Under the pieces are notes generated by a model. It saw nothing but the letters and a program-made list of their open reading frames with translations. It had not been told where the DNA came from and ran no database searches. 45,416 nt of DNA from Candidatus Coatesbacteria bacterium (lineage in GTDB: Bacteria > JAFGND01), in contig JAFGND010000087.1 of the NCBI GenBank assembly GCA_016927185.1, forward strand, positions 1 to 45,416. Direction: 5' to 3'. Shown here piece after piece: positions 8,190 to 42,608 of this stretch. Numbering within the stretch: the stretch's first letter is position 1; each line of letters begins with the position of its first letter. The translations under genes and the position numbers were made by a program.

Positions 8190-9251
8190 ATGATAGACAC
8201 AAAGACAATCAATCTGGCATTTAAAGCCGGTAGAAATCTCTTTTATCAAAATTTCTATATGAAAACAGGAATAAATTTATTAAAACCAACTAACTTCTAT
8301 AGCATAATAAATGAGTTTTGTAATGCAAGATGCAAAATCTGTGACATGTGGACAAGAAATAAGATAATAGATCTGCCAGCAGAAATATGGATAAAGCATC
8401 TTGAAAGTATACATGACTGGCTTGGAAGATATTATATCAGCTTTTCAGGAGGAGAACCATTAATCAAGAAGGATTTTTTTAATATACTTGAATTTTGTAA
8501 TCAGAAAGGTATTTCCTGTGGAGTTGTAACTAATTCTATAAAAATTGATAAGCAAATGGCCGAAGAATTGATAAAACTGAGAGTATTCAATATCAGTATA
8601 AGTGTAGATGGAGCAAAAGCAGAGACTCATGATTATTTGAGAGGAGTACCAGGTCTTTTTGATCACGTTATAGAAGTAGTTTCTTATCTGAAAGATGCAA
8701 AAGAAAAAAATAAGGTCCCATTAAGGATAATATTCAAGACTGTAGTTAATAGCAGAAATCTTGAAGAGATTCCTGATATAATAAGGTTGGTCGAAAAATT
8801 GGGCATAACAGGAGTTATGTTTCAACCAGTTTTTAAGTGGACTGAAGCTACAAAAAATGAGCTCTGGGTAAAAGATATAGAGACTTTAGATAAGGTTATT
8901 AGAGAAGTAATTAAACTTTACAAAAATGGATCTCCAATACTAGTTTCTCAAGATACAATTCAATTATGGAGAAACCACTTTCTTGAAGAAAAGCTTGAAC
9001 CTAAAAGAATCTGCAATATTGGATTGAATAACTATTTAATGCAATGGGATGGAAAGGTCTTTCTCTGTACTTTTTTTCCAAGTATAGGGAATTTATCCGA
9101 GACAAAAGCAAAAGATATTTGGTATTCTGAAAAAGCAGAAAATATCAGAAAAGCAACAATTAATTGCAGGAAAACTTGTTTAAATACTTGTACCTCAAAG
9201 AAAAGTATTAACGATAGGCTAAAGCAGTTTTTTCAATTATTGAAATCCTAA
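8190..9251 (+). CDS. Radical SAM protein with C-terminal SPASM/twitch domain
   Basis: CNARCKIC, SGGEPL, SISVDG...HDYLRG, C-terminal CNIG...DGKVFLC...IGNL...IW...CRKTCLNTC. Confidence 0.9.
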   Translation: MIDTKTINLAFKAGRNLFYQNFYMKTGINLLKPTNFYSIINEFCNARCKICDMWTRNKIIDLPAEIWIKHLESIHDWLGRYYISFSGGEPLIKKDFFNILEFCNQKGISCGVVTNSIKIDKQMAEELIKLRVFNISISVDGAKAETHDYLRGVPGLFDHVIEVVSYLKDAKEKNKVPLRIIFKTVVNSRNLEEIPDIIRLVEKLGITGVMFQPVFKWTEATKNELWVKDIETLDKVIREVIKLYKNGSPILVSQDTIQLWRNHFLEEKLEPKRICNIGLNNYLMQWDGKVFLCTFFPSIGNLSETKAKDIWYSEKAENIRKATINCRKTCLNTCTSKKSINDRLKQFFQLLKS

Positions 9252-25698: not shown

Positions 25699-28600
25699 TT
25701 GGCTAAACCTGGCTATTTTTGCACTCCATTAATATTCAATCAGCTGAGCAGGATAAAGGAAATTATCTCAGATAATAAAACCAGGCATGCTGTAGAATAT
25801 CTGGATTTCAGAAGGATTGTACTGGCTATCTCATTTACCTTTTCAGGAAAGAATAAAGAAGAATACAAGGCTAATAATGCTTTTTTCAAGTACACAGGAG
25901 ATATTCTTTGCAAAGCAGGTTTGATACCACTTGGAATAATGAAACCTGTTCTTTATTTCGCCTTTAATGAGAATACTAATAAAGAAGAAGCAATTATCCT
26001 GGCAAGAGCCATAATGATGAAATTCCAGCAGAAGCAATTCAAAAAAGGTTATATCAAGATTTTCAAATCACTTGAACCACTGGAAATAAAAGCAGCACTT
26101 TTTGAAGGGAATCTGACTGTTTCTCTGCTAAAACTTGGAAGAAAAAGACAGAGTTTCATTTTTGGCACTGCATTTGATGCAGTTACTGAATCGCTTACCA
26201 ATACTGCTCCCTGGATGATAGCATTTCCTTCAAGCTGGCAAAGAGAGAACGAGGATCTTCTCGATTTAAGTACTGCAAATGGTCAGCTAGTCTTTCTTAC
26301 TCCTAGGGGAGAGATGGCAGAAAAAGCAAGAAAACAAATTTCCTATAAACTGGATGAAATAGCAGGTTTTCTCAAGGAATTCAGCTTACCTGATTTTCCT
26401 GGAAAACAAAGGGAATTTGATGCAGAATGCAATCTGGAATATTTTTGTTTCAAGGGACATTTTCCAGTAAATTCAAGTATTGCTTTAAAGAAAAGCACCT
26501 GGAATCAAATATTCAAGGAAATTGATTATTTGTTATCGCGAATACCTGATAGCATTGATTATTATTATCTTATAAACACAAAGGCAAATAGCTGGTTTTT
26601 TGAATTATTAGTGAATTCAGATCATTCACGATTACCTTTTATAAAAGAAAGCGAAATCAATCTTCCAGGTTTTTCAATCAGAGATAATTTCAAGATAAAC
26701 ATAATCACTCTGGGGAGTTATAAAAAGGTAAACCTCATTGATAGTATTAGTGATTCAGCAGATGAAGTACTATCAGGAGTTTCTGTTAATGATAAAATTC
26801 TTTTTATTGAAAGAGCTGATAAAGAAGGTGCTGATTTAATTATCAAGAATGGTGATGCTTTCAGGAAAAGGACTTTGCTTGTTACTGAAGAGAAAGCATT
26901 AGATAAAGAAATAGCTGTTGAGAATAAAGATGCAGAAAAAGCTGCAAAACCTAAAATAATAATATATACTCCCCAGCAAAAAACCAGAATTGCTTATCCT
27001 TCAACAAGGGAGGTTTTTGCAGGAAGGGAACAAGAAAAGAAAATATTAGCTAAAGCATTAAATGAGCAATTTGCTTTTGTTGAAATAACAGGGGAAGCTG
27101 GTATTGGTAAAACCACCTTGATAAAGGAGTTCTCACGGAATGCTAATGCTAACCTGTTTTATGGTTCTGGACAAAGCAGACATGGTAATATCCCTTTATT
27201 TGCTGATATTTTAAATAATATATTAGCAGTTAAGTTTCCGATTGAATTTTCAGCATTGGAAAAGGCCTTTTTCTCTTATATTGGCAAAGCTTTCAGCAAA
27301 ACACCTGACAGGGAAAAGATAATAGCAAAATGGACAGAGATTTTCCCGCTCTTTTCAGAAAGTGTATGGGGAGTAAAAAGCAATAAGTGTTTTTTAGATT
27401 GGCCTTCAGAAGCCGTTAACAAGTTTATAGATGATGTTTTCATTGATTTCATCAAAAATCACGGAATGACAGGTAACAAGAAGCTATTGATATGTATTGA
27501 TGATGCCCATAAACTAATGATTTCTGACAAGAACAGATTAAAGAAGATTGTTTCAAGGCTATATAATGTTCAAAATGAGCAATCTGTTTGCCTGGTATAT
27601 ATATCAAGATCAATAGATAAGCTAGATGATAGAATTATCAAGAATTGGTGTTTTCACCATATTGATTTGGGGAAATTAGATGCTAACGAATGCAAGACAA
27701 TTATCAGTAGTTCAAGAAATAAAGACAAGATAACAACAGAGATTGAAAAAAGGCTTATTTCTTTTGGAAATCCTGTTTTTATCAAGCTTGCAGAGTGTGG
27801 AATTCTACCTGAAAGAAAAGACAAGATTCAGGATGCAGTTCATGAATATTTGCAGAAACTCGGAACAGAAGAAAGAAAGGTTATCAGTATTCTTTCATGG
27901 TCAGGAAATGAATGGAATTTGAATCATCTTAAAGAGATTTACAAGTTCAATTTGAAAAACATAGATGAGATTAAATTTTTCTTTTCAGACCTGGATATAA
28001 AAGAGGGTTCTTTTGCTTTTAGATGCCTATTTTTAAGAGATATCATTGTTTCCGAAATTCCAAAAGAAGACAAAATAAAATTGCATGCTAAATGGTTTGA
28101 TCACCTTAAGATATTGCATCAATGCAGTAACTGGACATCAGATTTATCTCTATGCTTCTATCATGCTTTTGAATCAAGAAGATATGAAGAAGCTTCTGAG
28201 TTGGGAATGAAATTAGCAAGATTATTTCAGAAGGATGAACAATGGAATGAATTGGTTAGAGTTTTAAGAAAGCTTGAAATGATTCCAAAACCTTCAAGGA
28301 TGCTTACTTTCACTATATCCCTATTTTATCTTTACTATTTTCTTCATCAGGATTCTCTTCAGGAAATAAAAAGAAGGATAAATCAACTTGATAAACTTGT
28401 CAGAAATATGAAGGATAAAAAAGAGATAATTGAATACTGGCTTCTCAAGGCAGAATATTCAAAAAGATATGAGTCCAGAATACTGGCTCAGGAGATGATA
28501 CTTGAGCTGCAAAGACGTGTAAAAAGATGGAAAGACGAGGAAATTCAGGCAAGCATATCTTTTCTTATAGGTAGCATAGCATTCAAACTTGGTCAATACA

Positions 28601-30126
28601 AACTTGCTGATAAATCTCTTGAAGAAGCTTTTTCATATTTTAAAAGTTATAAAGATAGCAGTTTCTTATATAAGATCTCTCATATTTATTATAAATTGAA
28701 TATTGAGGAAAAGGAGTTTCATAAAGCCTCTGAAATTGCAGGGGATGTTATTAATTATGCAAATTCTGCAAATCATTTCTACTCAAAATCTTCATGGGAA
28801 CTTAAGCTAGCCTATGTTTTGTATAAAACAAATGACTTTAACAAGGCTGAACAAGTTTTATTGAATGCAAAGAAATACTTCCAGTCATTCAACATAGCTT
28901 ATAAATGGACTAATCTTCTTGAGTTAGAGGGAGATTTATATAAATCGATGGAAAATTACAGGGATGCCAGGTTGACTTATGAAAAAGCGCTTGAATGCTT
29001 GAAATATAAGGAAGAACACGAGCTTGAACTTAATTTACTTATAAAATATATCAACTTGCTTGCTGAGAGTGGACTAATACAAAGATGTCATCAAGTGGCA
29101 GAAACGATAAGCAGGTTAGCCAGGGAAAAGAGCAGCAGCATATATGTAACTGAAAGCAATCTGGTTCTATCTGGTCTTTATCTGTCTCTGGGTATTTATG
29201 ATAAGGTAAAAGAGGTTATTAATCAATCAGCTGTTTTTTATCAGCATAACAGAAGATTAATAGCATTGGCTCGACTTCATACAGGACTGTCTGAATTATA
29301 TAAAGGTAATACTGAATATGGATTCAGGGAATTGAAGCATTCAGTTGCAACAGCATTTACTGTAGAGGATATGCTTTTAAGGTTCAATTGTCTGATAGGT
29401 ATATGCAGATACTTCATTGCAACAAAAGACTGGGTTAATGTGGTGGAAATACTAGACAAACTGAAAGCTCTTATCCCACCAAAATGGTTAAAAATAAAGA
29501 TAAGTTACTATCAGGCTCAGCTAGAGTATCTGCAGATATTGTTTCATTTTCAGAAATATCTGACTCTTAAAAATAAAAACGATCTTGATAGTGCACTTTC
29601 TATTCTGGAAGTATTATTTGAGCATTATAATCCCCCGGTAGAAGCAACTGTTTTCGATCTCAAGCTGAATTTATTGGCTTATCATATTTATGATAGCATG
29701 AATGATAGCAAATCATCATACCATATTTCAAGTGCTTACAAGATAGCGGAGAATATATTAATAGAAAATAAAAATGAGAAGATTCAGCTCCTGTTAAGAT
29801 CAAAAACAAGCTTCTGTCAGAGGGTATTGGATATTTTTGAAAAAAGCAATTTAAACGTAGGAAAAAGTAAACAAACAGAGATCTTTATAAACAGCAAGAA
29901 TACAAAGAGGGATTTTTTTAAGCAAAAAAAAGATAAATCAAATGCCAAAAAACATCATAAAATGGTTACTCATCAAAATGAAACTAAAGATAACAGAAAT
30001 AATGTTTCATTGGTAAGTATTCATCATGAAGAAAAAAGACAGGCAAATGTTCAATCTGATCCTTTCCAAGAGGAGAAGCCTGGCTTCATTCCAAGAATCG
30101 TGAAAAAGAAGATCTCCAAAAAATGA
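25699..30126 (+). CDS. Large STAND-like P-loop ATPase with TPR-like C-terminus and possible degenerate cyclase N-terminus
   Basis: FAGREQE, Walker A GEAGIGKT, Walker B LLICIDDAH, GNPVF, long helical repeats, disordered basic tail; TTG start uncertain. Confidence 0.8.
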   Translation: MAKPGYFCTPLIFNQLSRIKEIISDNKTRHAVEYLDFRRIVLAISFTFSGKNKEEYKANNAFFKYTGDILCKAGLIPLGIMKPVLYFAFNENTNKEEAIILARAIMMKFQQKQFKKGYIKIFKSLEPLEIKAALFEGNLTVSLLKLGRKRQSFIFGTAFDAVTESLTNTAPWMIAFPSSWQRENEDLLDLSTANGQLVFLTPRGEMAEKARKQISYKLDEIAGFLKEFSLPDFPGKQREFDAECNLEYFCFKGHFPVNSSIALKKSTWNQIFKEIDYLLSRIPDSIDYYYLINTKANSWFFELLVNSDHSRLPFIKESEINLPGFSIRDNFKINIITLGSYKKVNLIDSISDSADEVLSGVSVNDKILFIERADKEGADLIIKNGDAFRKRTLLVTEEKALDKEIAVENKDAEKAAKPKIIIYTPQQKTRIAYPSTREVFAGREQEKKILAKALNEQFAFVEITGEAGIGKTTLIKEFSRNANANLFYGSGQSRHGNIPLFADILNNILAVKFPIEFSALEKAFFSYIGKAFSKTPDREKIIAKWTEIFPLFSESVWGVKSNKCFLDWPSEAVNKFIDDVFIDFIKNHGMTGNKKLLICIDDAHKLMISDKNRLKKIVSRLYNVQNEQSVCLVYISRSIDKLDDRIIKNWCFHHIDLGKLDANECKTIISSSRNKDKITTEIEKRLISFGNPVFIKLAECGILPERKDKIQDAVHEYLQKLGTEERKVISILSWSGNEWNLNHLKEIYKFNLKNIDEIKFFFSDLDIKEGSFAFRCLFLRDIIVSEIPKEDKIKLHAKWFDHLKILHQCSNWTSDLSLCFYHAFESRRYEEASELGMKLARLFQKDEQWNELVRVLRKLEMIPKPSRMLTFTISLFYLYYFLHQDSLQEIKRRINQLDKLVRNMKDKKEIIEYWLLKAEYSKRYESRILAQEMILELQRRVKRWKDEEIQASISFLIGSIAFKLGQYKLADKSLEEAFSYFKSYKDSSFLYKISHIYYKLNIEEKEFHKASEIAGDVINYANSANHFYSKSSWELKLAYVLYKTNDFNKAEQVLLNAKKYFQSFNIAYKWTNLLELEGDLYKSMENYRDARLTYEKALECLKYKEEHELELNLLIKYINLLAESGLIQRCHQVAETISRLAREKSSSIYVTESNLVLSGLYLSLGIYDKVKEVINQSAVFYQHNRRLIALARLHTGLSELYKGNTEYGFRELKHSVATAFTVEDMLLRFNCLIGICRYFIATKDWVNVVEILDKLKALIPPKWLKIKISYYQAQLEYLQILFHFQKYLTLKNKNDLDSALSILEVLFEHYNPPVEATVFDLKLNLLAYHIYDSMNDSKSSYHISSAYKIAENILIENKNEKIQLLLRSKTSFCQRVLDIFEKSNLNVGKSKQTEIFINSKNTKRDFFKQKKDKSNAKKHHKMVTHQNETKDNRNNVSLVSIHHEEKRQANVQSDPFQEEKPGFIPRIVKKKISKK

Positions 30127-31010: not shown

Positions 31011-31091
31011 AATTTCTCCTTTCAAGATATCTAATACTTATACAGAAATTTGACATAAAACTCGCGAATACAAAATCATTAAGAGGTGAAA

Positions 31092-31105
31092 TTTTTTTCT
31101 TGACA
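31092..31105 (+). promoter_or_regulatory. Probable -35 element upstream of the peptide genes
   Basis: T-tract plus TTGACA at 31100-31105; a second TTGACA near 31050. Confidence 0.4.
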
Positions 31106-31180
31106 ATTTTTATTGTATTATTAAGACAACTTCAAAATGAATCAATAAAGGGAAACCATGTCAGGGAGGTGAATGATTAA

Positions 31181-31345
31181 ATGAAGAGATATAGTAAGCC
31201 AATTATCAGATCAGAGCAGATCTTTGAAAAAACAGCATTAGCATGCGACGATTATGTTTACTACGCAAAAGATTATGAAGGATGTATGGACGAATATCTT
31301 GGTCGCGGTAAAGAAACCACTGCTTGTGCTGAGACCTGGAGTTAA
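31181..31345 (+). CDS. 54-aa putative RiPP precursor peptide 1, not in the ORF track
   Basis: MKRYSKPIIRSEQIFEKTALACDDYVYYAKDYEGCMDEYLGRGKETTACAETWS; GGAGG RBS at 31165-31169; followed by a terminator; paralogue downstream. Confidence 0.9.
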   Translation: MKRYSKPIIRSEQIFEKTALACDDYVYYAKDYEGCMDEYLGRGKETTACAETWS

Positions 31346-31358
31346 TTTTTAATTCTTT

Positions 31359-31386
31359 AAAAGCGGTTCGTAAGAACCGCTTTTTT
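31359..31386 (+). terminator. Intrinsic terminator after peptide 1
   Basis: aaaagcggttc-GTAA-gaaccgctttt perfect stem with GNRA loop and T-run. Confidence 0.9.
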
Positions 31387-31455
31387 ATTTGTAAATCTCT
31401 TCAATGTGAAGAAGATACAAACTCAAATAATTGAAATGAGTTAAAGGGGTATGAA

Positions 31456-31626
31456 ATGAAGAAATATTTAAAACCGGTAGTAGTTTCTGAAAGGATTATG
31501 GAAAGAACTGCTCTCAAATGTGAAGACTACTTGTATTATACCAAGGATTATGAAGGCTGCACAGAAGATTACCTGGGAAGAGGTAAGGAAGAAGGTACTG
31601 GAGCTTGTGCAGAAACATTCAGCTAA
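31456..31626 (+). CDS. 56-aa putative RiPP precursor peptide 2, not in the ORF track
   Basis: MKKYLKPVVVSERIMERTALKCEDYLYYTKDYEGCTEDYLGRGKEEGTGACAETFS; AAAGGGG RBS; 37 identical residues with peptide 1. Confidence 0.9.
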   Translation: MKKYLKPVVVSERIMERTALKCEDYLYYTKDYEGCTEDYLGRGKEEGTGACAETFS

Positions 31627-31664: not shown

Positions 31665-31699
31665 CTCTGCAAGACAGTCTTAAATATTGTTTTGCAGAG
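31665..31699 (+). terminator. Hairpin after peptide 2
   Basis: ctctgcaagacagt/attgttttgcagag stem with G-U pairs; weak T-tract. Confidence 0.5.
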
Positions 31700-31804
31700 T
31701 TAAAAAGTTTTTTTATATATTTCAAATCTGAAAATCATTAATATGACTTATATTCTTTACTAGAAAACTTGACTAAAAGTCTTTTTTTTAAATCAGCTAC
31801 AAGC

Positions 31805-40059: not shown

Positions 40060-41165
40060 TATTCAGATTTATAATCCTGATACTTTCTGTTATTGCGGGT
40101 TACAATCTCTCTGAATTTGTACTCAAGCAGATGGCTTACAGAAAGCTCAAAGAAGCATGCTCTATACAGCAGTTTTTCGAGGCAGATAAGATACTTGGCT
40201 GGAAAGGCAGGAATAATGCAAAAGGCTGGTTCAAGGAAAAGGAAGTATCTAGAATAAGTTTTGTTTCACTAAATAGTAGAGGTTTCAGGGGAGAAGATTT
40301 CCATTATCATAGAAGAAAAAAACATAGATTGGTTATTCTGGGAGATTCTTTCACCTGGGGTTATGGTGTAAACCAGGATGAGATGATGTCCAGATATCTC
40401 AAAGAATTGCTGGGGAAAGATTGGGAAATAATTAATCTATCAGTATTTGGCTACTCAACTGATCAGGAACTTATTCTTCTTGAACGCGAGGGAATAAAAT
40501 ATAAACCAGATTTGGTATTATTGTTCTTTTTTACTGGTAATGATTTCGGTGACAATTCAAAGGATAAAGTCTATAATAGATACAAACCTTTTTTTGAACT
40601 TGAAAAAGACAAAAAATTGTTGCAGAAAAGCAAGTTTTCAAGACTTTCCTGGAAAAGAAGAATTAGTACGAGTCTTAAAGAAAGCAGTTATACATACTTG
40701 CTTTTACGTAAACTGCTTGGAAGAGATGATACAAAGAATTTATCTGAAATAACTTCCCTGAATTTCACTGATGATTTTACAGATTACAATATTAGTCTTT
40801 CTTTTCAGATTATAAAAAGAATGAATGAATTCCTGGCAAAAAAGAAAACAAGATTTCTTGTGATTATAGTTCCTACCCAGGAACAAGTATATTCATGGTC
40901 TGCTCCTTTCTTTCCAAAGCAATATGGACGATTCAATATGAACAAGCTGTTTCATGGAAACAATGAGCTTAAGAGAATGCTGAAAGAGGAAAAAATTAAC
41001 TGCATTGATCTGACTGAACCACTTCAAACTTTATCTATAGATTATGCAAAAGAGAAGAAAAAAAGATTTGTTTATAATATAGGTGATCTTCACTGGTCTG
41101 TTCTTGGGAACAAAGAAGTTGCCAATCTGCTTGAAGTGGAAATAAAGAGATTAATCAATAACTAA
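40026..41165 (+). CDS. Membrane-anchored SGNH/GDSL hydrolase family protein
   Basis: NSRGFRG, LGDSFTWG, GYSTDQE, GND, DLHWS. Confidence 0.88.
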   Translation: MDASGFSRKKLIFRFIILILSVIAGYNLSEFVLKQMAYRKLKEACSIQQFFEADKILGWKGRNNAKGWFKEKEVSRISFVSLNSRGFRGEDFHYHRRKKHRLVILGDSFTWGYGVNQDEMMSRYLKELLGKDWEIINLSVFGYSTDQELILLEREGIKYKPDLVLLFFFTGNDFGDNSKDKVYNRYKPFFELEKDKKLLQKSKFSRLSWKRRISTSLKESSYTYLLLRKLLGRDDTKNLSEITSLNFTDDFTDYNISLSFQIIKRMNEFLAKKKTRFLVIIVPTQEQVYSWSAPFFPKQYGRFNMNKLFHGNNELKRMLKEEKINCIDLTEPLQTLSIDYAKEKKKRFVYNIGDLHWSVLGNKEVANLLEVEIKRLINN

Positions 41166-42608
41166 GACTTTGTTTGCTTTGAAATCTGAATTTCTCACTT
41201 CAATAAAATAAATCCCTTTCTCGATATTTTTAAGAGAAAGTCTCAATACAGCAGCAGGTTGATCCACAGAGCATTGTTTGTTCAATATTCTTATTCCAAT
41301 CAGATTATAAATGCTTATAGATACATCTGTTTTTCTGTAACTATTTAAAGCTATATTTACGTAGCTTCTTGCAGGTTGAGGGAATATGCAAAAGCTATTC
41401 TTTGCTGGAACAGCTCTGTTAAACTTAGCGAATCCAGTTCCCCTTCCAGAGAAAGTTGAGTCGCTTATATCATATAGCCCTGGGTTTCTCTGGGATGCAA
41501 CTTTGGCAAGCATTTCAGGTAAAGCAGGGATCGTGAAATAGCAATAACCTGTATCAACAGGAACTGTTGCTAGCTGAATCCACGATACACCAAAATCGGT
41601 TGATAAATAAAGGTTTGCGTAATCAGTAGAAGAATCATATTCCTTGATCTTGAAAATGAATTTCACTTTTTCACTGGAATTATACTTTTCTCCGCCATTT
41701 GGAACTAGCTGTTGTGCATATTCCGCACTATCATCGTAGGTGAGAGTTGAGGTTTCAATACCGAACTTGCTGTCTGCATAATAAGCAATCCTGAAGAAAC
41801 CGTTTTCTCCCCAGTTTTCTCCCCAGCTATTCTTGCAAATCCAGCAGCTGTCAGTATCTGACCAGCCGACGGTTGCTATATCATGCAAACCTGCTTCAGT
41901 GCTGCTTGTTCTTTTGTAGACTCCAGAATCATAGTAAAAGAAATCATAGTAAACCATGAAACTTACATATATTGGACCGGTTTGTATATTCTCTTTCATC
42001 CATTCAATACCTGGGTAATTAACATAAGCCCATGTGGTTGCCTTAACCAGCTCCCTGAACCACAATTCGCATCTTTCATCACAAGATGAGTTCCTTCCAC
42101 TGTATGGATAACATTCCTCTGTAACAGTACCATGTTTTGCAAGAAATCTGACAACTGCAAGCGGGGAACCTCCCCCGCAATCATTTGGCCAGCCTTCTTC
42201 AGGGAGAAGACAGGTTGATACAAGATATTGTTCAGAAAGATCAAGATCAAAAGATGGATTTTCAGTATCAATAAGTATTGCGGATTCAAGTATTGCACAG
42301 GCAGCATGAGCCCAACATGATCCGCAACCTCCTTGATCCTTGACTGAAGTAACATAGTTCTTGCCATTATGATTTCTCCAGTCCCAGTTTGCAGGGGCAG
42401 GTGATCCCGCAAGGCCGGTATGTTTCATGGAAACTGGATATTTTGCTTTCTTGACAATATTTTTCTGCATAGAGGCAGGTAATCTTGTAATCCAGTTCTC
42501 TGATGCTGTCCATTCGTATTTTTTTCTCTTTATGGCATCTCTTACCTCAGGCAAGGATGTAGAATAAAGAATTGAGGACAGCAGCAAGATTACAGATAAG
42601 ATTCTCAT
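41151..42608 (-). CDS. Secreted papain-like (C1A) cysteine peptidase with T9SS-like C-terminal domain
   Basis: DWRN, QGGCGSCW, LSEQ, catalytic His in GLHDIATVGW, KNSWG..WGENGF, PNGGE domain, FPQPA...GIYFI. Confidence 0.93.
   Translation of the reverse strand: MRILSVILLLSSILYSTSLPEVRDAIKRKKYEWTASENWITRLPASMQKNIVKKAKYPVSMKHTGLAGSPAPANWDWRNHNGKNYVTSVKDQGGCGSCWAHAACAILESAILIDTENPSFDLDLSEQYLVSTCLLPEEGWPNDCGGGSPLAVVRFLAKHGTVTEECYPYSGRNSSCDERCELWFRELVKATTWAYVNYPGIEWMKENIQTGPIYVSFMVYYDFFYYDSGVYKRTSSTEAGLHDIATVGWSDTDSCWICKNSWGENWGENGFFRIAYYADSKFGIETSTLTYDDSAEYAQQLVPNGGEKYNSSEKVKFIFKIKEYDSSTDYANLYLSTDFGVSWIQLATVPVDTGYCYFTIPALPEMLAKVASQRNPGLYDISDSTFSGRGTGFAKFNRAVPAKNSFCIFPQPARSYVNIALNSYRKTDVSISIYNLIGIRILNKQCSVDQPAAVLRLSLKNIEKGIYFIEVRNSDFKANKVLVID

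What the first reader, a model, noticed from the sequence alone, without database searches (positions are those of the whole stretch)
31181..31626. Tandem unannotated three-Cys peptides with a RiPP-type leader: candidate new RiPP family
Seen: two ORFs of 54 and 56 aa, below the ORF-track cutoff, each with its own RBS and downstream hairpin. They share 37 identical residues, with consensus MKxYxKPxxxSExIxExTALxC-x-DYxYYxKDYEGC-xxx-YLGRGKE-..-ACAETxS. Conserved residues often use different codons (LGRGK is ctt ggt cgc ggt aaa vs ctg gga aga ggt aag), which argues for selection on the peptide. Known: N-terminal YxxP motifs are the docking site for PqqD-like RiPP recognition elements in lasso peptide leaders and related systems. 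Inference: a 21-aa leader and an acidic, Tyr-rich core with Cys spaced C-x12-C-x13/15-C. An odd Cys count with Asp/Glu within 1-3 residues of each Cys could suit radical-SAM thioether crosslinking. I do not recognise the core as a named family.
Basis: partly seen in the sequence, partly recalled or inferred. Interest (0 to 1): 0.9.

Follow-up and report, generated by a model that had tools for sequence, protein, structure and literature searches.

The report
Orphan RiPP-type three-cysteine peptide genes
Two small tandem genes belong to a ten-copy family of 54-residue peptides whose front end matches the docking leader of peptides made by radical-SAM maturation cassettes, so they are probably precursors of an undescribed modified-peptide family.

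Summary
Both ORFs (31181-31345 and 31456-31626, + strand) are real. They share 37 of 54 residues, and 26 of those 37 use different codons. Each has its own RBS and its own terminator or hairpin.

They are 2 of 10 intact copies, plus 1 frameshifted copy, scattered over this 3-Mb genome. About a dozen relatives exist in metagenomes. None was found in the GTDB species genomes scanned with three peptide patterns. No Pfam, NCBIfam, PHROG, PADLOC or PDB family matches.

The key evidence is a profile built only from the ten copies. In 6 of 6 genomes of another lineage its only hit is a 46-51-aa peptide. In 5 of those 6 the peptide lies inside a conserved cassette: P-loop protein, PqqD, radical SAM/SPASM, precursor, signal-peptidase-I-like protease. 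The match covers the leader plus the first Cys.

This genome has one such cassette, split over contigs C107 and C50, and it also carries a PF14907 nucleotidyltransferase.

No maturase lies beside the window's genes, so maturation would have to occur in trans. The chemistry is untested. RRE-leader docking got only weak support (0.45 against a best control of 0.10).

Verdict: probable orphan RiPP precursors, a new variant of a known kind.

The parts
31050..31079 (+). sigma-70-like promoter match (TTGACA, 18 nt spacer, AATCAT) upstream of the first peptide gene
   Evidence: 10 of 12 hexamer positions match. This is a consensus match only. The scan found 6 such sites in the region against 4.3 expected, so it is weak evidence.
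31163..31169 (+). ribosome-binding site AGGGAGG of peptide gene 1
   Evidence: Read directly. It lies 11 nt before the ATG at 31181.
31181..31345 (+). peptide gene 1, 54 aa. The proposed leader is about codons 1-19/21 (31181-31243). The invariant Cys are at 22, 35 and 49, and the last residue is Ser.
   Evidence: The gene is a member of the 10-copy family.
31359..31391 (+). intrinsic-terminator-like hairpin (11 bp stem) plus T run after gene 1
   Evidence: One search gives -16.1 kcal/mol, z -4.36, and 0 of 200 shuffles fold as well.
31444..31449 (+). ribosome-binding site AAGGGG of peptide gene 2
   Evidence: Read directly. It lies 6 nt before the ATG at 31456.
31456..31626 (+). peptide gene 2, 56 aa. 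The proposed leader spans 31456-31518. The invariant Cys are at 22, 35 and 51, and the last residue is Ser.
   Evidence: A related strain in two DNA runs shows no change in this gene.
31665..31712 (+). hairpin followed by a T run after gene 2
   Evidence: the 77-nt fold has energy -20.8 kcal/mol and z -3.85. The T run is read. The terminator scan did not call this site.

Best explanation
**What they are.** The two genes are separately transcribed members of a lineage-restricted, multi-copy family of about 54-residue precursor peptides. The family layout is:
- an RRE-docking leader, MKxYxKPxIISExVFEKTAL;
- a conserved acidic, Tyr-rich middle part with two invariant Cys (C22, C35) and a GxGK motif;
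- a fast-evolving tail of about 10 residues that keeps one Cys and ends in Ser.

**How they probably work.** This mechanism is inferred, not shown.
1. A discrete PqqD-type recognition protein binds the YxKPxI leader.
2. It presents the peptide to a radical SAM/SPASM enzyme, which cross-links the Cys residues.
3. A signal-peptidase-I-like protease removes the leader, probably near residue 19-20.
4. The terminal Ser is possibly phosphorylated and further decorated by the cassette's P-loop (HprK-like) protein and its PF14907 nucleotidyltransferase.

**Where the enzymes are.** They are not next to these genes. They lie in the genome's single cassette, split over contigs C107 and C50. The ten scattered genes would therefore be orphan substrates matured in trans. 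A second candidate maturase is the rSAM/SPASM on contig C99.
For: **Shown**
- Real genes under purifying selection: 37 of 54 residues are identical and 26 of those 37 use different codons. The crude mean pN/pS is 0.36 for the leader, 0.30 for the middle part and 0.70 for the tail.
- Ten intact copies plus one frameshifted copy exist in the genome, nine of the ten with a plain RBS-like sequence (C70 has none obvious).
- A profile of these ten copies alone gives one hit at E<=1 in each of 5 further genomes searched and, at E<=0.01, one in G014, with E between 8e-6 and 7e-4. In every case the hit is a 46-51-aa peptide. In 5 of the 6 genomes that peptide sits in the cassette P-loop protein, PqqD, rSAM/SPASM, peptide, SpI-like protease. 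The sixth contig is too short to tell.
- The distance from the leader Pro to the first Cys is 15 residues in the family, in the cassette peptides, in this genome's cassette precursor and in P0026 and P0027. The published LppA motif and numbering place its modified Ser3 at the same offset (PMC13381572, sections 6-7 and passages read).
- This genome has a discrete PqqD protein at 63 bits. Its closest solved relatives are the lasso RRE TbiB1 (5v1u, E 3.4e-6), a PqqD-family chain (9x8z_B) and TfuB1.
- After that PqqD gene come, in order, an rSAM/SPASM, a 66-aa Cys-rich precursor and an SpI-like protease. Before it lie a PF14907 nucleotidyltransferase and a P-loop protein whose best NCBIfam hit is HprK-related kinase A at E 2.6e-5.
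- The last residue is Ser in 19 of 21 family members and Thr in the other 2, although the tail is the most variable part. All six cassette peptides also end in Ser.
- In paeninodin-type systems an HprK-like kinase phosphorylates the C-terminal Ser, and the nucleotidyltransferase PsmN is needed to add hexose (PMC6993621, passages read).
- The peptide alone shows no predicted fold: pLDDT 52.7, pTM 0.15.
- The complex of PqqD with the peptide got weak support: score 0.45, best of 3 controls 0.10, runs agreeing in at least 83% of contacts, partner pLDDT 49. That mark was reached by 58 of 80 solved complexes and 2 of 110 mismatched pairs. At 0.60 or under it was reached by only 7 of the 80 and by both passing mismatches.
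Against: - No modifying enzyme, RRE or exporter lies beside the window's genes. The neighbours are a lipoprotein, a 1475-aa AAA_16/TPR protein, small membrane-like ORFs and a MutL-family gene.
- Two metagenome relatives (L036, L037) also have no maturase within their 1.5-1.8-kb contigs.
- The cassette's own precursor in this genome scores only 6.9 bits (E 23) against the family leader profile. It shares only the YSKPxII core and the Pro-to-Cys spacing.
- The rSAM of the foreign cassettes matches the C99 enzyme better (147-178 bits) than the C107 enzyme (83-126 bits for a truncated query). C99 lies in a polysaccharide-export operon with no PqqD or peptide.
- The conserved part of the family includes two Cys inside what could be read as a long leader. 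The leader/core boundary is therefore uncertain.
- The kinase assignment rests on a weak P-loop-centred hit, and the structure model failed (pLDDT 39).
- The complex score falls in the band where passes are more often wrong than right unless the guess was likely beforehand.
- There is no mass-spectrometry or expression evidence.
Confidence: 0.58

Rival explanations
1. The peptides are unmodified small cytosolic proteins, for example thiol- or metal-binding, or regulatory. Their N-terminal resemblance to RiPP leaders would then be inherited or convergent, without any maturation.
For: - The copies are scattered among housekeeping genes, each with its own promoter-like site and terminator.
- Conservation is strongest in the middle part (pN 0.22). 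That fits a folded or binding segment as well as it fits a core.
- No maturase lies beside 7 of the 8 loci in this genome.
- Neither metagenome locus has one either.
Against: - The leader profile's hit in 6 of 6 other genomes is a 46-51-aa peptide, which in 5 of the 6 is encoded inside an rSAM cassette.
- The Pro-to-Cys spacing is identical in the family and in the cassette peptides.
- The Ser/Thr terminus is invariant in a variable tail.
- No fold is predicted.
- The Cys count is odd.
- No family match was found in four HMM libraries or in the PDB.
Confidence: 0.22
2. The peptides are precursors of a protein-bound or free peptide-derived cofactor or cross-linked small subunit, in the manner of PqqA, MftA or QhpC. 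They would serve the genome's large family of secreted PQQ-repeat beta-propellers rather than act as a secreted bioactive peptide.
For: - The core is rich in Tyr, Asp and Glu next to Cys.
- 4 of the 8 peptide loci lie within 200 nt of one of 117 propeller-like loci, while only 9.4% of the genome lies within 1000 nt of such a locus.
- PqqD plus rSAM/SPASM is the machinery of PQQ and mycofactocin synthesis. The NCBIfam hits include PqqE, MftC and PqqD, all below their cut-offs.
Against: - The copies next to propellers share flanking DNA, so the adjacency may stem from one duplication.
- Gene orientation relative to the propeller is not conserved.
- PQQ-repeat propellers of this type are not known to need a cofactor (recalled).
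- Ten divergent tails fit a single cofactor poorly.
- No hit to PqqA or any other Pfam family was found at E<=10, apart from a sub-threshold DUF19 match.
Confidence: 0.08
3. The real product is only the variable tail of about 10-12 residues after GRGK. The first 44 residues, including two Cys, would then act as a long leader or scaffold. This is a different reading of the boundary within the RiPP hypothesis.
For: - The tail evolves about twice as fast as the rest: pN 0.48 against 0.22-0.25, with pair dN/dS of 0.7-2.1. It keeps only one Cys and the last Ser.
- A conserved leader with a hypervariable core is the usual pattern in multi-precursor RiPP families (recalled).
- G41, G43 and K44 are invariant in 21 sequences and could mark a cleavage site.
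Against: - In the cassette peptides of the other lineage the similarity ends right after the first Cys (model positions 1-23).
- The LPP leader is cut 12 residues after the Pro (PMC13381572), which points to a boundary near residue 19-20.
- The dN/dS values are crude and come from very short segments.
Confidence: 0.1
4. The ORFs are chance open frames or non-coding.
For: None beyond their small size.
Against: - 26 of 37 identical residues use different codons.
- 10 paralogues have start codons, and nine of them a plain RBS-like sequence.
- 14 columns are invariant.
- Relatives occur in independent metagenomes.
Confidence: 0.01

Closest known systems
Linear polyphosphorylated peptide (LPP) system of Bacillota (Popov et al., Nat Commun 2026, PMC13381572; sections 6 and 7 and searched passages read)
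   Same: [quoted passage not shown]
- The leader is similar: Y-x-x-P followed by two hydrophobic residues and an F-E-(K)-T stretch.
- The modified or invariant residue lies 15 positions after the Pro.
- The N-terminus is conserved and the C-terminus variable.
- The foreign cassettes are embedded in polysaccharide loci.
   Different: - The cassettes here carry a radical SAM/SPASM enzyme, which the LPP paper does not mention ('radical' occurs 0 times in its text).
- Position Pro+15 is Cys, not Ser.
- No MsbA-like exporter was seen.
- The organisms are not Bacillota, to which the paper says LPPs are restricted.
- The ten family genes are unlinked to the cassette.
- Whether PF14907 is the paper's NTP transferase family was not verified.
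Lasso peptide leaders and B1-type RREs (TbiB1 5v1u/5v1v, TfuB1 6jx3)
   Same: - The leader has the [Y/W]xxPx[L/V/I/F/A] motif.
- The C107 PqqD protein's best solved relatives are TbiB1 (E 3.4e-6) and TfuB1.
   Different: - The cassette holds no lasso cyclase or B2 protease.
- The core has no lasso ring architecture that I could recognise.
Radical SAM/SPASM thioether RiPPs and QhpC/QhpD (sactipeptides, ranthipeptides such as the PapB substrates)
   Same: - Cys-bearing acidic peptides occur with rSAM/SPASM enzymes.
- The C107 rSAM hits PapB, AlbA, StsB, SkfB and QhpD-like profiles at E 1e-16 to 1e-23.
   Different: - All of those hits are far below the family cut-offs.
- The RRE is a separate protein, not fused to the enzyme.
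- No thioether has been shown here.
- Most precursors are not clustered with the enzyme.
SynChlorMet cassette (NCBIfam ScmC, ScmD, ScmE)
   Same: The gene order is an HprK-like P-loop protein, then a PqqD-like protein, then an rSAM/SPASM. Weak hits were found to ScmC (E 0.0094), ScmD (1.1e-7) and ScmE (2.3e-26).
   Different: - All scores are far below the curated cut-offs.
- Only one rSAM was seen here. That the SCM cassette has a pair of them is recalled, not checked.
- Two further points: an SpI-like protease is present here, and I found no literature on the SCM cassette in the held library.
Prochlorosin-type combinatorial systems: many scattered precursors served by one enzyme (recalled, no paper read)
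   Same: Ten precursor genes with a conserved front and a variable end are scattered over the genome, while there is one candidate maturation cassette.
   Different: The enzyme class is different. Here a large conserved Cys/Tyr block lies between the leader and the variable tail. Action in trans is not shown.

Membership tests
RiPP precursor recognised by a PqqD-type RRE | Leader with the [Y/W]xxPx[L/V/I/F/A] motif | tested here: met
   Y4, P7 and a hydrophobic residue at position 9 are invariant or nearly so in 21 sequences. The motif definition is taken from PMC13381572.
RiPP precursor recognised by a PqqD-type RRE | An RRE protein is encoded in the same genome | tested here: met
   Two PqqD hits exceed the Pfam cut-off: C107 at 63.1 bits and C21 at 28.2 bits.
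RiPP precursor recognised by a PqqD-type RRE | Physical binding of the leader to the RRE | tested here: inconclusive
   One search gave weak support: score 0.45, best control 0.10, at least 83% contact agreement, partner pLDDT 49. The mark was reached by 58 of 80 solved complexes and 2 of 110 mismatched pairs. At 0.60 or under it was reached by only 7 of the 80 and by both passing mismatches.
RiPP precursor recognised by a PqqD-type RRE | Precursor gene clustered with its modifying enzymes | tested here: not met
   No such enzymes lie around 31181-31626. One of the 8 loci (C106) lies 70 nt downstream of an rSAM/SPASM plus GT2 pair. The feature is met only by homologous-leader peptides in 5 other genomes and by the C50 precursor.
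RiPP precursor recognised by a PqqD-type RRE | Post-translational modification and leader removal demonstrated | not testable with these tools
   This needs mass spectrometry.
LPP family (PMC13381572) | SpI-like leader protease co-localised with a discrete RRE | tested here: met
   The feature is met for the cassette, not for the window genes. The C50 119-aa protein hits signal peptidase I profiles at 1.7e-5 and 1.4e-4, and the G014 protein at 2.2e-7. The PqqD gene is the next gene but one.
LPP family (PMC13381572) | HprK-like kinase that phosphorylates a Ser of the core | tested here: inconclusive
   The 222-aa P-loop protein hits TIGR04352 at E 2.6e-5 with 23 bits, against a cut-off of 200. 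The structure model failed. No phosphorylation data exist.
LPP family (PMC13381572) | Leader consensus YxxPxVLxHQxIxFETxxS with Ser at Pro+15 | tested here: not met
   The length and the hydrophobic pattern are the same, but H, Q and the Ser are absent and Pro+15 is Cys. I therefore do not file the peptides as LPP members.
Sactipeptide/ranthipeptide | Cys-to-carbon thioether installed by an rSAM/SPASM maturase of the family | not testable with these tools
   Only sub-threshold profile hits were found, for example PapB at 71.6 bits against a cut-off of 340.
PqqA | Match to the PqqA family and a conserved Glu-x3-Tyr core | tested here: not met
   No PqqA hit was found in Pfam or NCBIfam at E<=10.

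The most novel reading that the evidence does not exclude
A candidate-phylum bacterium may run a combinatorial RiPP system. In this reading one cassette matures eleven scattered precursors. The cassette holds a PqqD-type RRE, a radical SAM/SPASM enzyme, a Cys-nucleophile signal-peptidase-like protease, an HprK-like kinase and a nucleotidyltransferase. The precursors share a Cys/Tyr scaffold and differ in a hypervariable tail. The tail's invariant C-terminal Ser would be phosphorylated and glycosylated. The result would be a hybrid between radical-SAM cross-linked peptides and the polyphosphorylated LPP/paeninodin chemistry, which has not been described. The same leader system is conserved in polysaccharide loci of another lineage.
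Probability: 0.3. Interest if true: 0.8.

Novelty: new variant of a known kind. Interest (0 to 1): 0.62.

Why it matters
- If these peptides are matured as proposed, the family would add a new precursor scaffold to radical-SAM RiPPs, with three invariant Cys, a Tyr/Asp/Glu-rich block and a conserved C-terminal Ser.
- It would extend the recently described toolkit of signal-peptidase-like protease, RRE, kinase and nucleotidyltransferase beyond Bacillota, joined to a radical SAM enzyme.
- It would give a natural example of one cassette serving many unlinked precursors in an uncultured lineage.
- The system is small enough to test by co-expression: five or six genes plus a 54-residue peptide.
- It shows that a leader profile can find cassettes that genome-neighbourhood mining of the peptides themselves would miss.

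Tried and rejected
**Library searches with no usable result**
- Pfam and NCBIfam scans of both peptides found nothing except a sub-threshold DUF19 hit at E 0.025.
- PHROGs, PADLOC and a PDB profile search found nothing significant.
- The ESM Atlas gave best scores of 0.84-0.85 to unnamed clusters, below the useful range.

**Collection scans**
- One search was rejected because the alignment had no conserved stretch.
- Two genome-contig scans found no relatives.
- The first metagenome scan found none. The second found two short loci with no informative neighbours.

**Searches for close homologues**
- Word-based searches for the C107 PqqD protein and the P-loop protein returned only the query itself, plus one close relative of the P-loop protein. 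No deep alignments could be built.
- The AlphaFold model of the P-loop protein reached pLDDT 39, so no fold search was done.

**Expression**
- No RNA holder is listed.
- Two metatranscriptome contig sets from the possible source study laid nothing on the stretch. This says nothing about expression.

**Candidates dropped**
- A candidate 'peptide' upstream of the C94 rSAM lies inside the DXS gene in another frame and was dropped.
- Long proteins hit by the profile (P0012, P0022, P0024, P0025) were set aside as probable repeat matches rather than relatives. The profile hit them only over repeated short stretches, and the one read, P0024, shows a repeated ...SDYEG... unit.

**Links that did not hold up**
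- The AAA_16/TPR protein upstream of the window genes and the cyclase-AAA_16-TPR protein next to the C21 PqqD are only distant relatives (E 1e-4), so no link is claimed.
- The rSAM/SPASM next to the C106 copy belongs to a widespread multi-paralogue family, found in 10 of 60 other genomes and twice more in this one. Its adjacency is therefore unresolved.
- The upstream repeat seen as a depth spike at 31071-31121 in run X2 is only a short AT-rich promoter-like word in this genome.

**Literature**
- Searches for SynChlorMet/GeoRSP/HprK-related, for PF14907 and for Coatesbacteria plus RiPP found nothing relevant.

**Method caveat**
- The dN/dS script is crude. Some pS values exceed 1, so I use only the statements that synonymous sites are saturated and that the tail evolves faster.
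Full report
**1. The observation**

Each has a purine-rich RBS, AGGGAGG at 31163-31169 and AAGGGG at 31444-31449.

The first gene is followed by a terminator-like hairpin at 31359-31384 with a T run. The scan found 1 such site against 0.2 expected, and the fold has z -4.36. The second gene is followed by a hairpin at about 31665-31699 (z -3.85) and then a T run. The genes therefore look like separate short transcription units.

The peptides share 37 of 54 aligned residues. Of those 37, 26 are encoded by different codons. The cysteine spacing is C-x12-C-x13/15-C, as reported.

**2. A multi-copy family**

Searching the window's own genome shows that the pair is part of a family. That genome is 2.99 Mb in 109 contigs, 93% complete, and the window is contig C18. 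There are ten intact copies:
- C18, two copies;
- C6, three copies in tandem;
- C90, C16, C100, C106 and C70, one copy each.

There is also one copy broken by a frameshift and a TAG stop at C106:35487-35650. Nine of the ten intact copies have a plain RBS-like sequence before the start (C70 has none obvious). The C106 copy starts with TTG. The C90 copy has AAG at the aligned start and may start at an internal Met.

Fourteen columns are invariant: K2, Y4, P7, S11, E12, E16, L20, C22, Y28, C35, G41, G43, K44 and C51. A crude codon analysis gives mean pN of 0.25 for the leader, 0.22 for residues 22-44 and 0.48 for the tail, with synonymous sites near saturation. The script is rough and some pS values exceed 1, so I rely only on the ranking.

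**3. Rarity outside this genome**

- A word-indexed search of 5.8 billion proteins found 11 proteins. Nine are from this genome and two from Logan assemblies.
- An exhaustive profile search of 1.84 billion cluster representatives found 19 hits at E<=0.001. Three are copies from this genome or its Logan relative (P0005, P0010, P0011). Ten are further small peptides of the family (P0013-P0021 and P0023, 53-74 aa). Two (P0026, P0027) share only the leader, the first Cys and a Cys-x4-Ser end. Four are long proteins that I set aside as probable repeat matches: all four were hit only over repeated short stretches, and the one I read, P0024, carries a repeated ...SDYEG... unit.
- Most relatives lie on contigs under 2 kb.
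- Scans of one genome per GTDB species found none with three peptide patterns.
- No Pfam, NCBIfam, PHROG, PADLOC or PDB family matches.
- Among 60 genomes offered as 'relatives', none is closer than domain level. An earlier AI note calls the genome Candidatus Coatesbacteria. I did not check this.

**4. The decisive lead**

The decisive lead came from that relatives search. The profile of the ten copies gave one weak hit in genome G014, covering model positions 3-23 (E 4e-4). The hit is a 49-aa peptide encoded directly after a PqqD gene and an rSAM/SPASM gene, and directly before a small signal-peptidase-I-like gene.

A wider search around G014 found the same kind of peptide in 6 of 101 genomes. 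With more flanking DNA, five of the six (G014, G061, G067, G068, G070) show the same order:
1. a P-loop protein of 226-296 aa;
2. PqqD;
3. rSAM/SPASM;
4. the 46-51-aa peptide;
5. an SpI-like protease. In G068 an 835-aa gene is inserted before the protease.

The sixth contig (G064) is too short to tell.

To avoid circularity I repeated the search with the profile made only from this genome's ten copies. In each of the five further genomes the single hit at E<=1 is that cassette peptide, over positions 1-23, with E from 8e-6 to 7e-4. The N-terminal 20-odd residues of the family are therefore homologous to the leader of a cassette-encoded rSAM substrate.

**5. The cassette in this genome**

Contig C107 carries, in order:
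- a PF14907 nucleotidyltransferase;
- a 222-aa P-loop protein;
- an 88-aa PqqD protein (63 bits);
- an rSAM/SPASM gene that runs off the contig end.

Contig C50 begins with the missing SPASM C-terminus in frame 2. That fragment matches the G070 enzyme's C-terminus at E 1e-5. C50 continues with:
- a 66-aa, seven-Cys peptide starting MKEKYSKPQII... and ending in Thr;
- a 119-aa SpI-like protein;
- a Kelch-repeat lipoprotein.

I infer that C107 and C50 are adjacent. No overlapping contig ends were found.

The PqqD protein's best solved relatives are the lasso RRE TbiB1 (E 3.4e-6), a PqqD-family chain 9x8z_B, and TfuB1. The P-loop protein's best NCBIfam hit is HprK-related kinase A (E 2.6e-5, 23 bits, far below the cut-off), with weaker hits to ScmC and HprK-related kinase B. 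The cassette genes are single-copy, apart from two 303-aa paralogues of the P-loop protein and a second PqqD gene on C21.

**6. Comparison with the literature**

Popov et al. (PMC13381572) describe the LPP family of Bacillota. I read sections 6 and 7 and searched passages. The LPP family has:
[quoted passage not shown] - an MsbA-like exporter;
- precursors with a conserved N-terminal YxxPxVLxHQxIxFETxxS motif and variable C-termini.

These clusters are often embedded in capsular polysaccharide loci. From the paper's numbering (Pro at -13, cleavage after Thr-1, phospho-Ser at +3), the modified Ser lies 15 residues after the Pro.

In the family here, in the six cassette peptides, in the C50 precursor and in P0026 and P0027, the first invariant Cys lies exactly 15 residues after the Pro. 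By the same analogy the leader would be cut near residue 19-20.

The cassettes here differ from LPP in four ways:
- They carry an rSAM/SPASM enzyme. The word 'radical' does not occur in the LPP paper.
- They have Cys instead of Ser at Pro+15.
- No exporter is visible.
- They occur outside Bacillota.

The foreign cassettes also sit beside polysaccharide genes: WecA, a PEP-CTERM-type ATPase and chain-length-determinant-like proteins.

**7. The conserved C-terminus**

This holds although the tail is the fastest-evolving part. The last Cys lies exactly five residues from the end in 16 of 21. All six cassette peptides also end in Ser, and the C50 precursor ends in Thr.

In paeninodin and pseudomycoidin the HprK-like kinase phosphorylates the side chain of the C-terminal Ser. 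The nucleotidyltransferase PsmN is needed to add hexose to the phosphate (PMC6993621, passages read).

The cassette in this genome has both a weakly HprK-like P-loop protein and a PF14907 nucleotidyltransferase. Phosphorylation of the terminal Ser is therefore a reasonable but untested prediction. An attempt to confirm the kinase fold failed (pLDDT 39).

**8. Other computed tests**

- The peptide alone is predicted without a fold (mean pLDDT 52.7, pTM 0.15, 21-row alignment). This fits a precursor but is weak evidence with so shallow an alignment.
- A complex prediction of the C107 PqqD protein with the peptide gave weak support. The score was 0.45, the best of three controls 0.10, at least 83% of contacts agreed between runs, and partner pLDDT was 49. 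The mark was reached by 58 of 80 solved complexes and 2 of 110 mismatched pairs. At 0.60 or under it was reached by only 7 of the 80 and by both mismatches that passed. RRE-leader complexes have been solved, so likeness may contribute to the score.
- A closely related strain in two biogas-fermenter DNA runs differs at 14 of about 1000 positions in this stretch. The only fixed change inside the peptide genes alters the variable residue 21 of gene 1. A third difference, at 31281 in gene 1, appears in only part of the X3 depth. Gene 2 is unchanged.

**9. What argues against the RiPP reading**

- Nothing near the window genes looks like a maturase. The neighbours are a lipoprotein on the opposite strand, a 1475-aa AAA_16/TPR protein, two small unknown ORFs and a MutL-family gene.
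- An rSAM/SPASM gene at 8190-9251 is 22 kb away, beside purF.
- Only the C106 copy lies directly downstream of an rSAM/SPASM plus GT2 pair. That rSAM belongs to a widespread multi-paralogue family. The copy's nearest metagenome relative (L037) has no such neighbours.
- The cassette's own precursor matches the family leader profile poorly (6.9 bits).
- The foreign cassettes' rSAM is closer to the C99 enzyme (147-178 bits) than to the C107 enzyme (83-126 bits, truncated). C99 sits in a wza-wzz-rSAM-nucleotidyltransferase-metK operon with no PqqD or peptide.
- Which enzyme acts on the family, if any, is therefore open, and action in trans is an inference.

**10. Verdict**

The genes are real and selected. 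The family is undescribed. Its leader is homologous to that of bona fide cassette-encoded rSAM substrates. I put about 0.6 on the reading that these are RiPP precursors matured in trans.

Within that reading:
- Radical-SAM cross-linking of the three Cys is the likeliest primary modification. It is inferred from the enzyme class and the odd, invariant Cys count.
- Terminal Ser phosphorylation is a plausible secondary modification.
- The main rival is an unmodified small protein, at about 0.2.

The system is a new variant of a known kind: RRE-dependent radical-SAM RiPPs, with a toolkit overlapping the LPP/paeninodin systems. It is not a categorically new mechanism.

Noticed in passing
genome contigs C6, C90, C16, C100 (not in the window): Four of the 8 peptide loci lie within 200 nt of a member of a very large family of PQQ-repeat beta-propeller genes with T9SS sorting tails. 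That family has 117 loci on 67 contigs, and only 9.4% of the genome lies within 1 kb of one. The copies share flanking DNA, so co-duplication may explain the pattern.
   Followed up: partly
G000 contig C106:35487-35650: An eleventh family copy is broken by a TAG stop and a frameshift after the leader. It is either a pseudogene or an assembly error.
   Followed up: no
G000 contig C90:1963-2124: This copy has AAG where the others have the start codon. The public gene call (P0008, 50 aa) begins at the internal Met, which would remove the Tyr of the YxxP motif.
   Followed up: no
G000 C50:382-741; G014 (L030:1623-1964); G068 (L053:2-211): In the SpI-like proteases the conserved G-G-S-M-x-P box has Cys in place of Ser in three of six genomes. 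The I-H-R box is kept. From recall, these boxes hold the nucleophile and the general base of ER/archaeal-type signal peptidases.
   Followed up: partly
window 8190-9251: A radical SAM/SPASM gene (353 aa) lies next to a purF-like gene and opposite glycosyltransferase genes, 22 kb upstream of the peptides. It is one of 19 SPASM-domain hits in a 3-Mb genome.
   Followed up: partly
window 25699-30126 and G000 C21:570-4664: A 1475-aa AAA_16/TPR (STAND-type) protein ends 1 kb upstream of the peptide genes. The genome's second PqqD gene sits directly before a 1246-aa adenylate-cyclase-AAA_16-TPR protein. The two large proteins are only distantly related (E 1e-4).
   Followed up: partly
window 41151-42608 (- strand): A papain-family (C1) cysteine protease with a T9SS C-terminal sorting domain.
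   Followed up: no
G000 contig C99:12794-18584: An operon-like row of a Wza-like exporter, a Wzz-like protein, an rSAM/SPASM, a nucleotidyltransferase and a SAM synthetase. Its rSAM is the best match in this genome to the rSAM of the foreign peptide cassettes.
   Followed up: partly
protein P0014 (metagenome, 74 aa): This family member has a 20-residue C-terminal extension that repeats the end module, a Cys a few residues before a terminal Thr.
   Followed up: no
G000 contig C90:2938-5814: An ABC-2 permease, an ABC ATPase and an MGDG-synthase-like glycosyltransferase lie directly upstream of the C90 peptide copy on the same strand. This could be an exporter or a coincidence.
   Followed up: no
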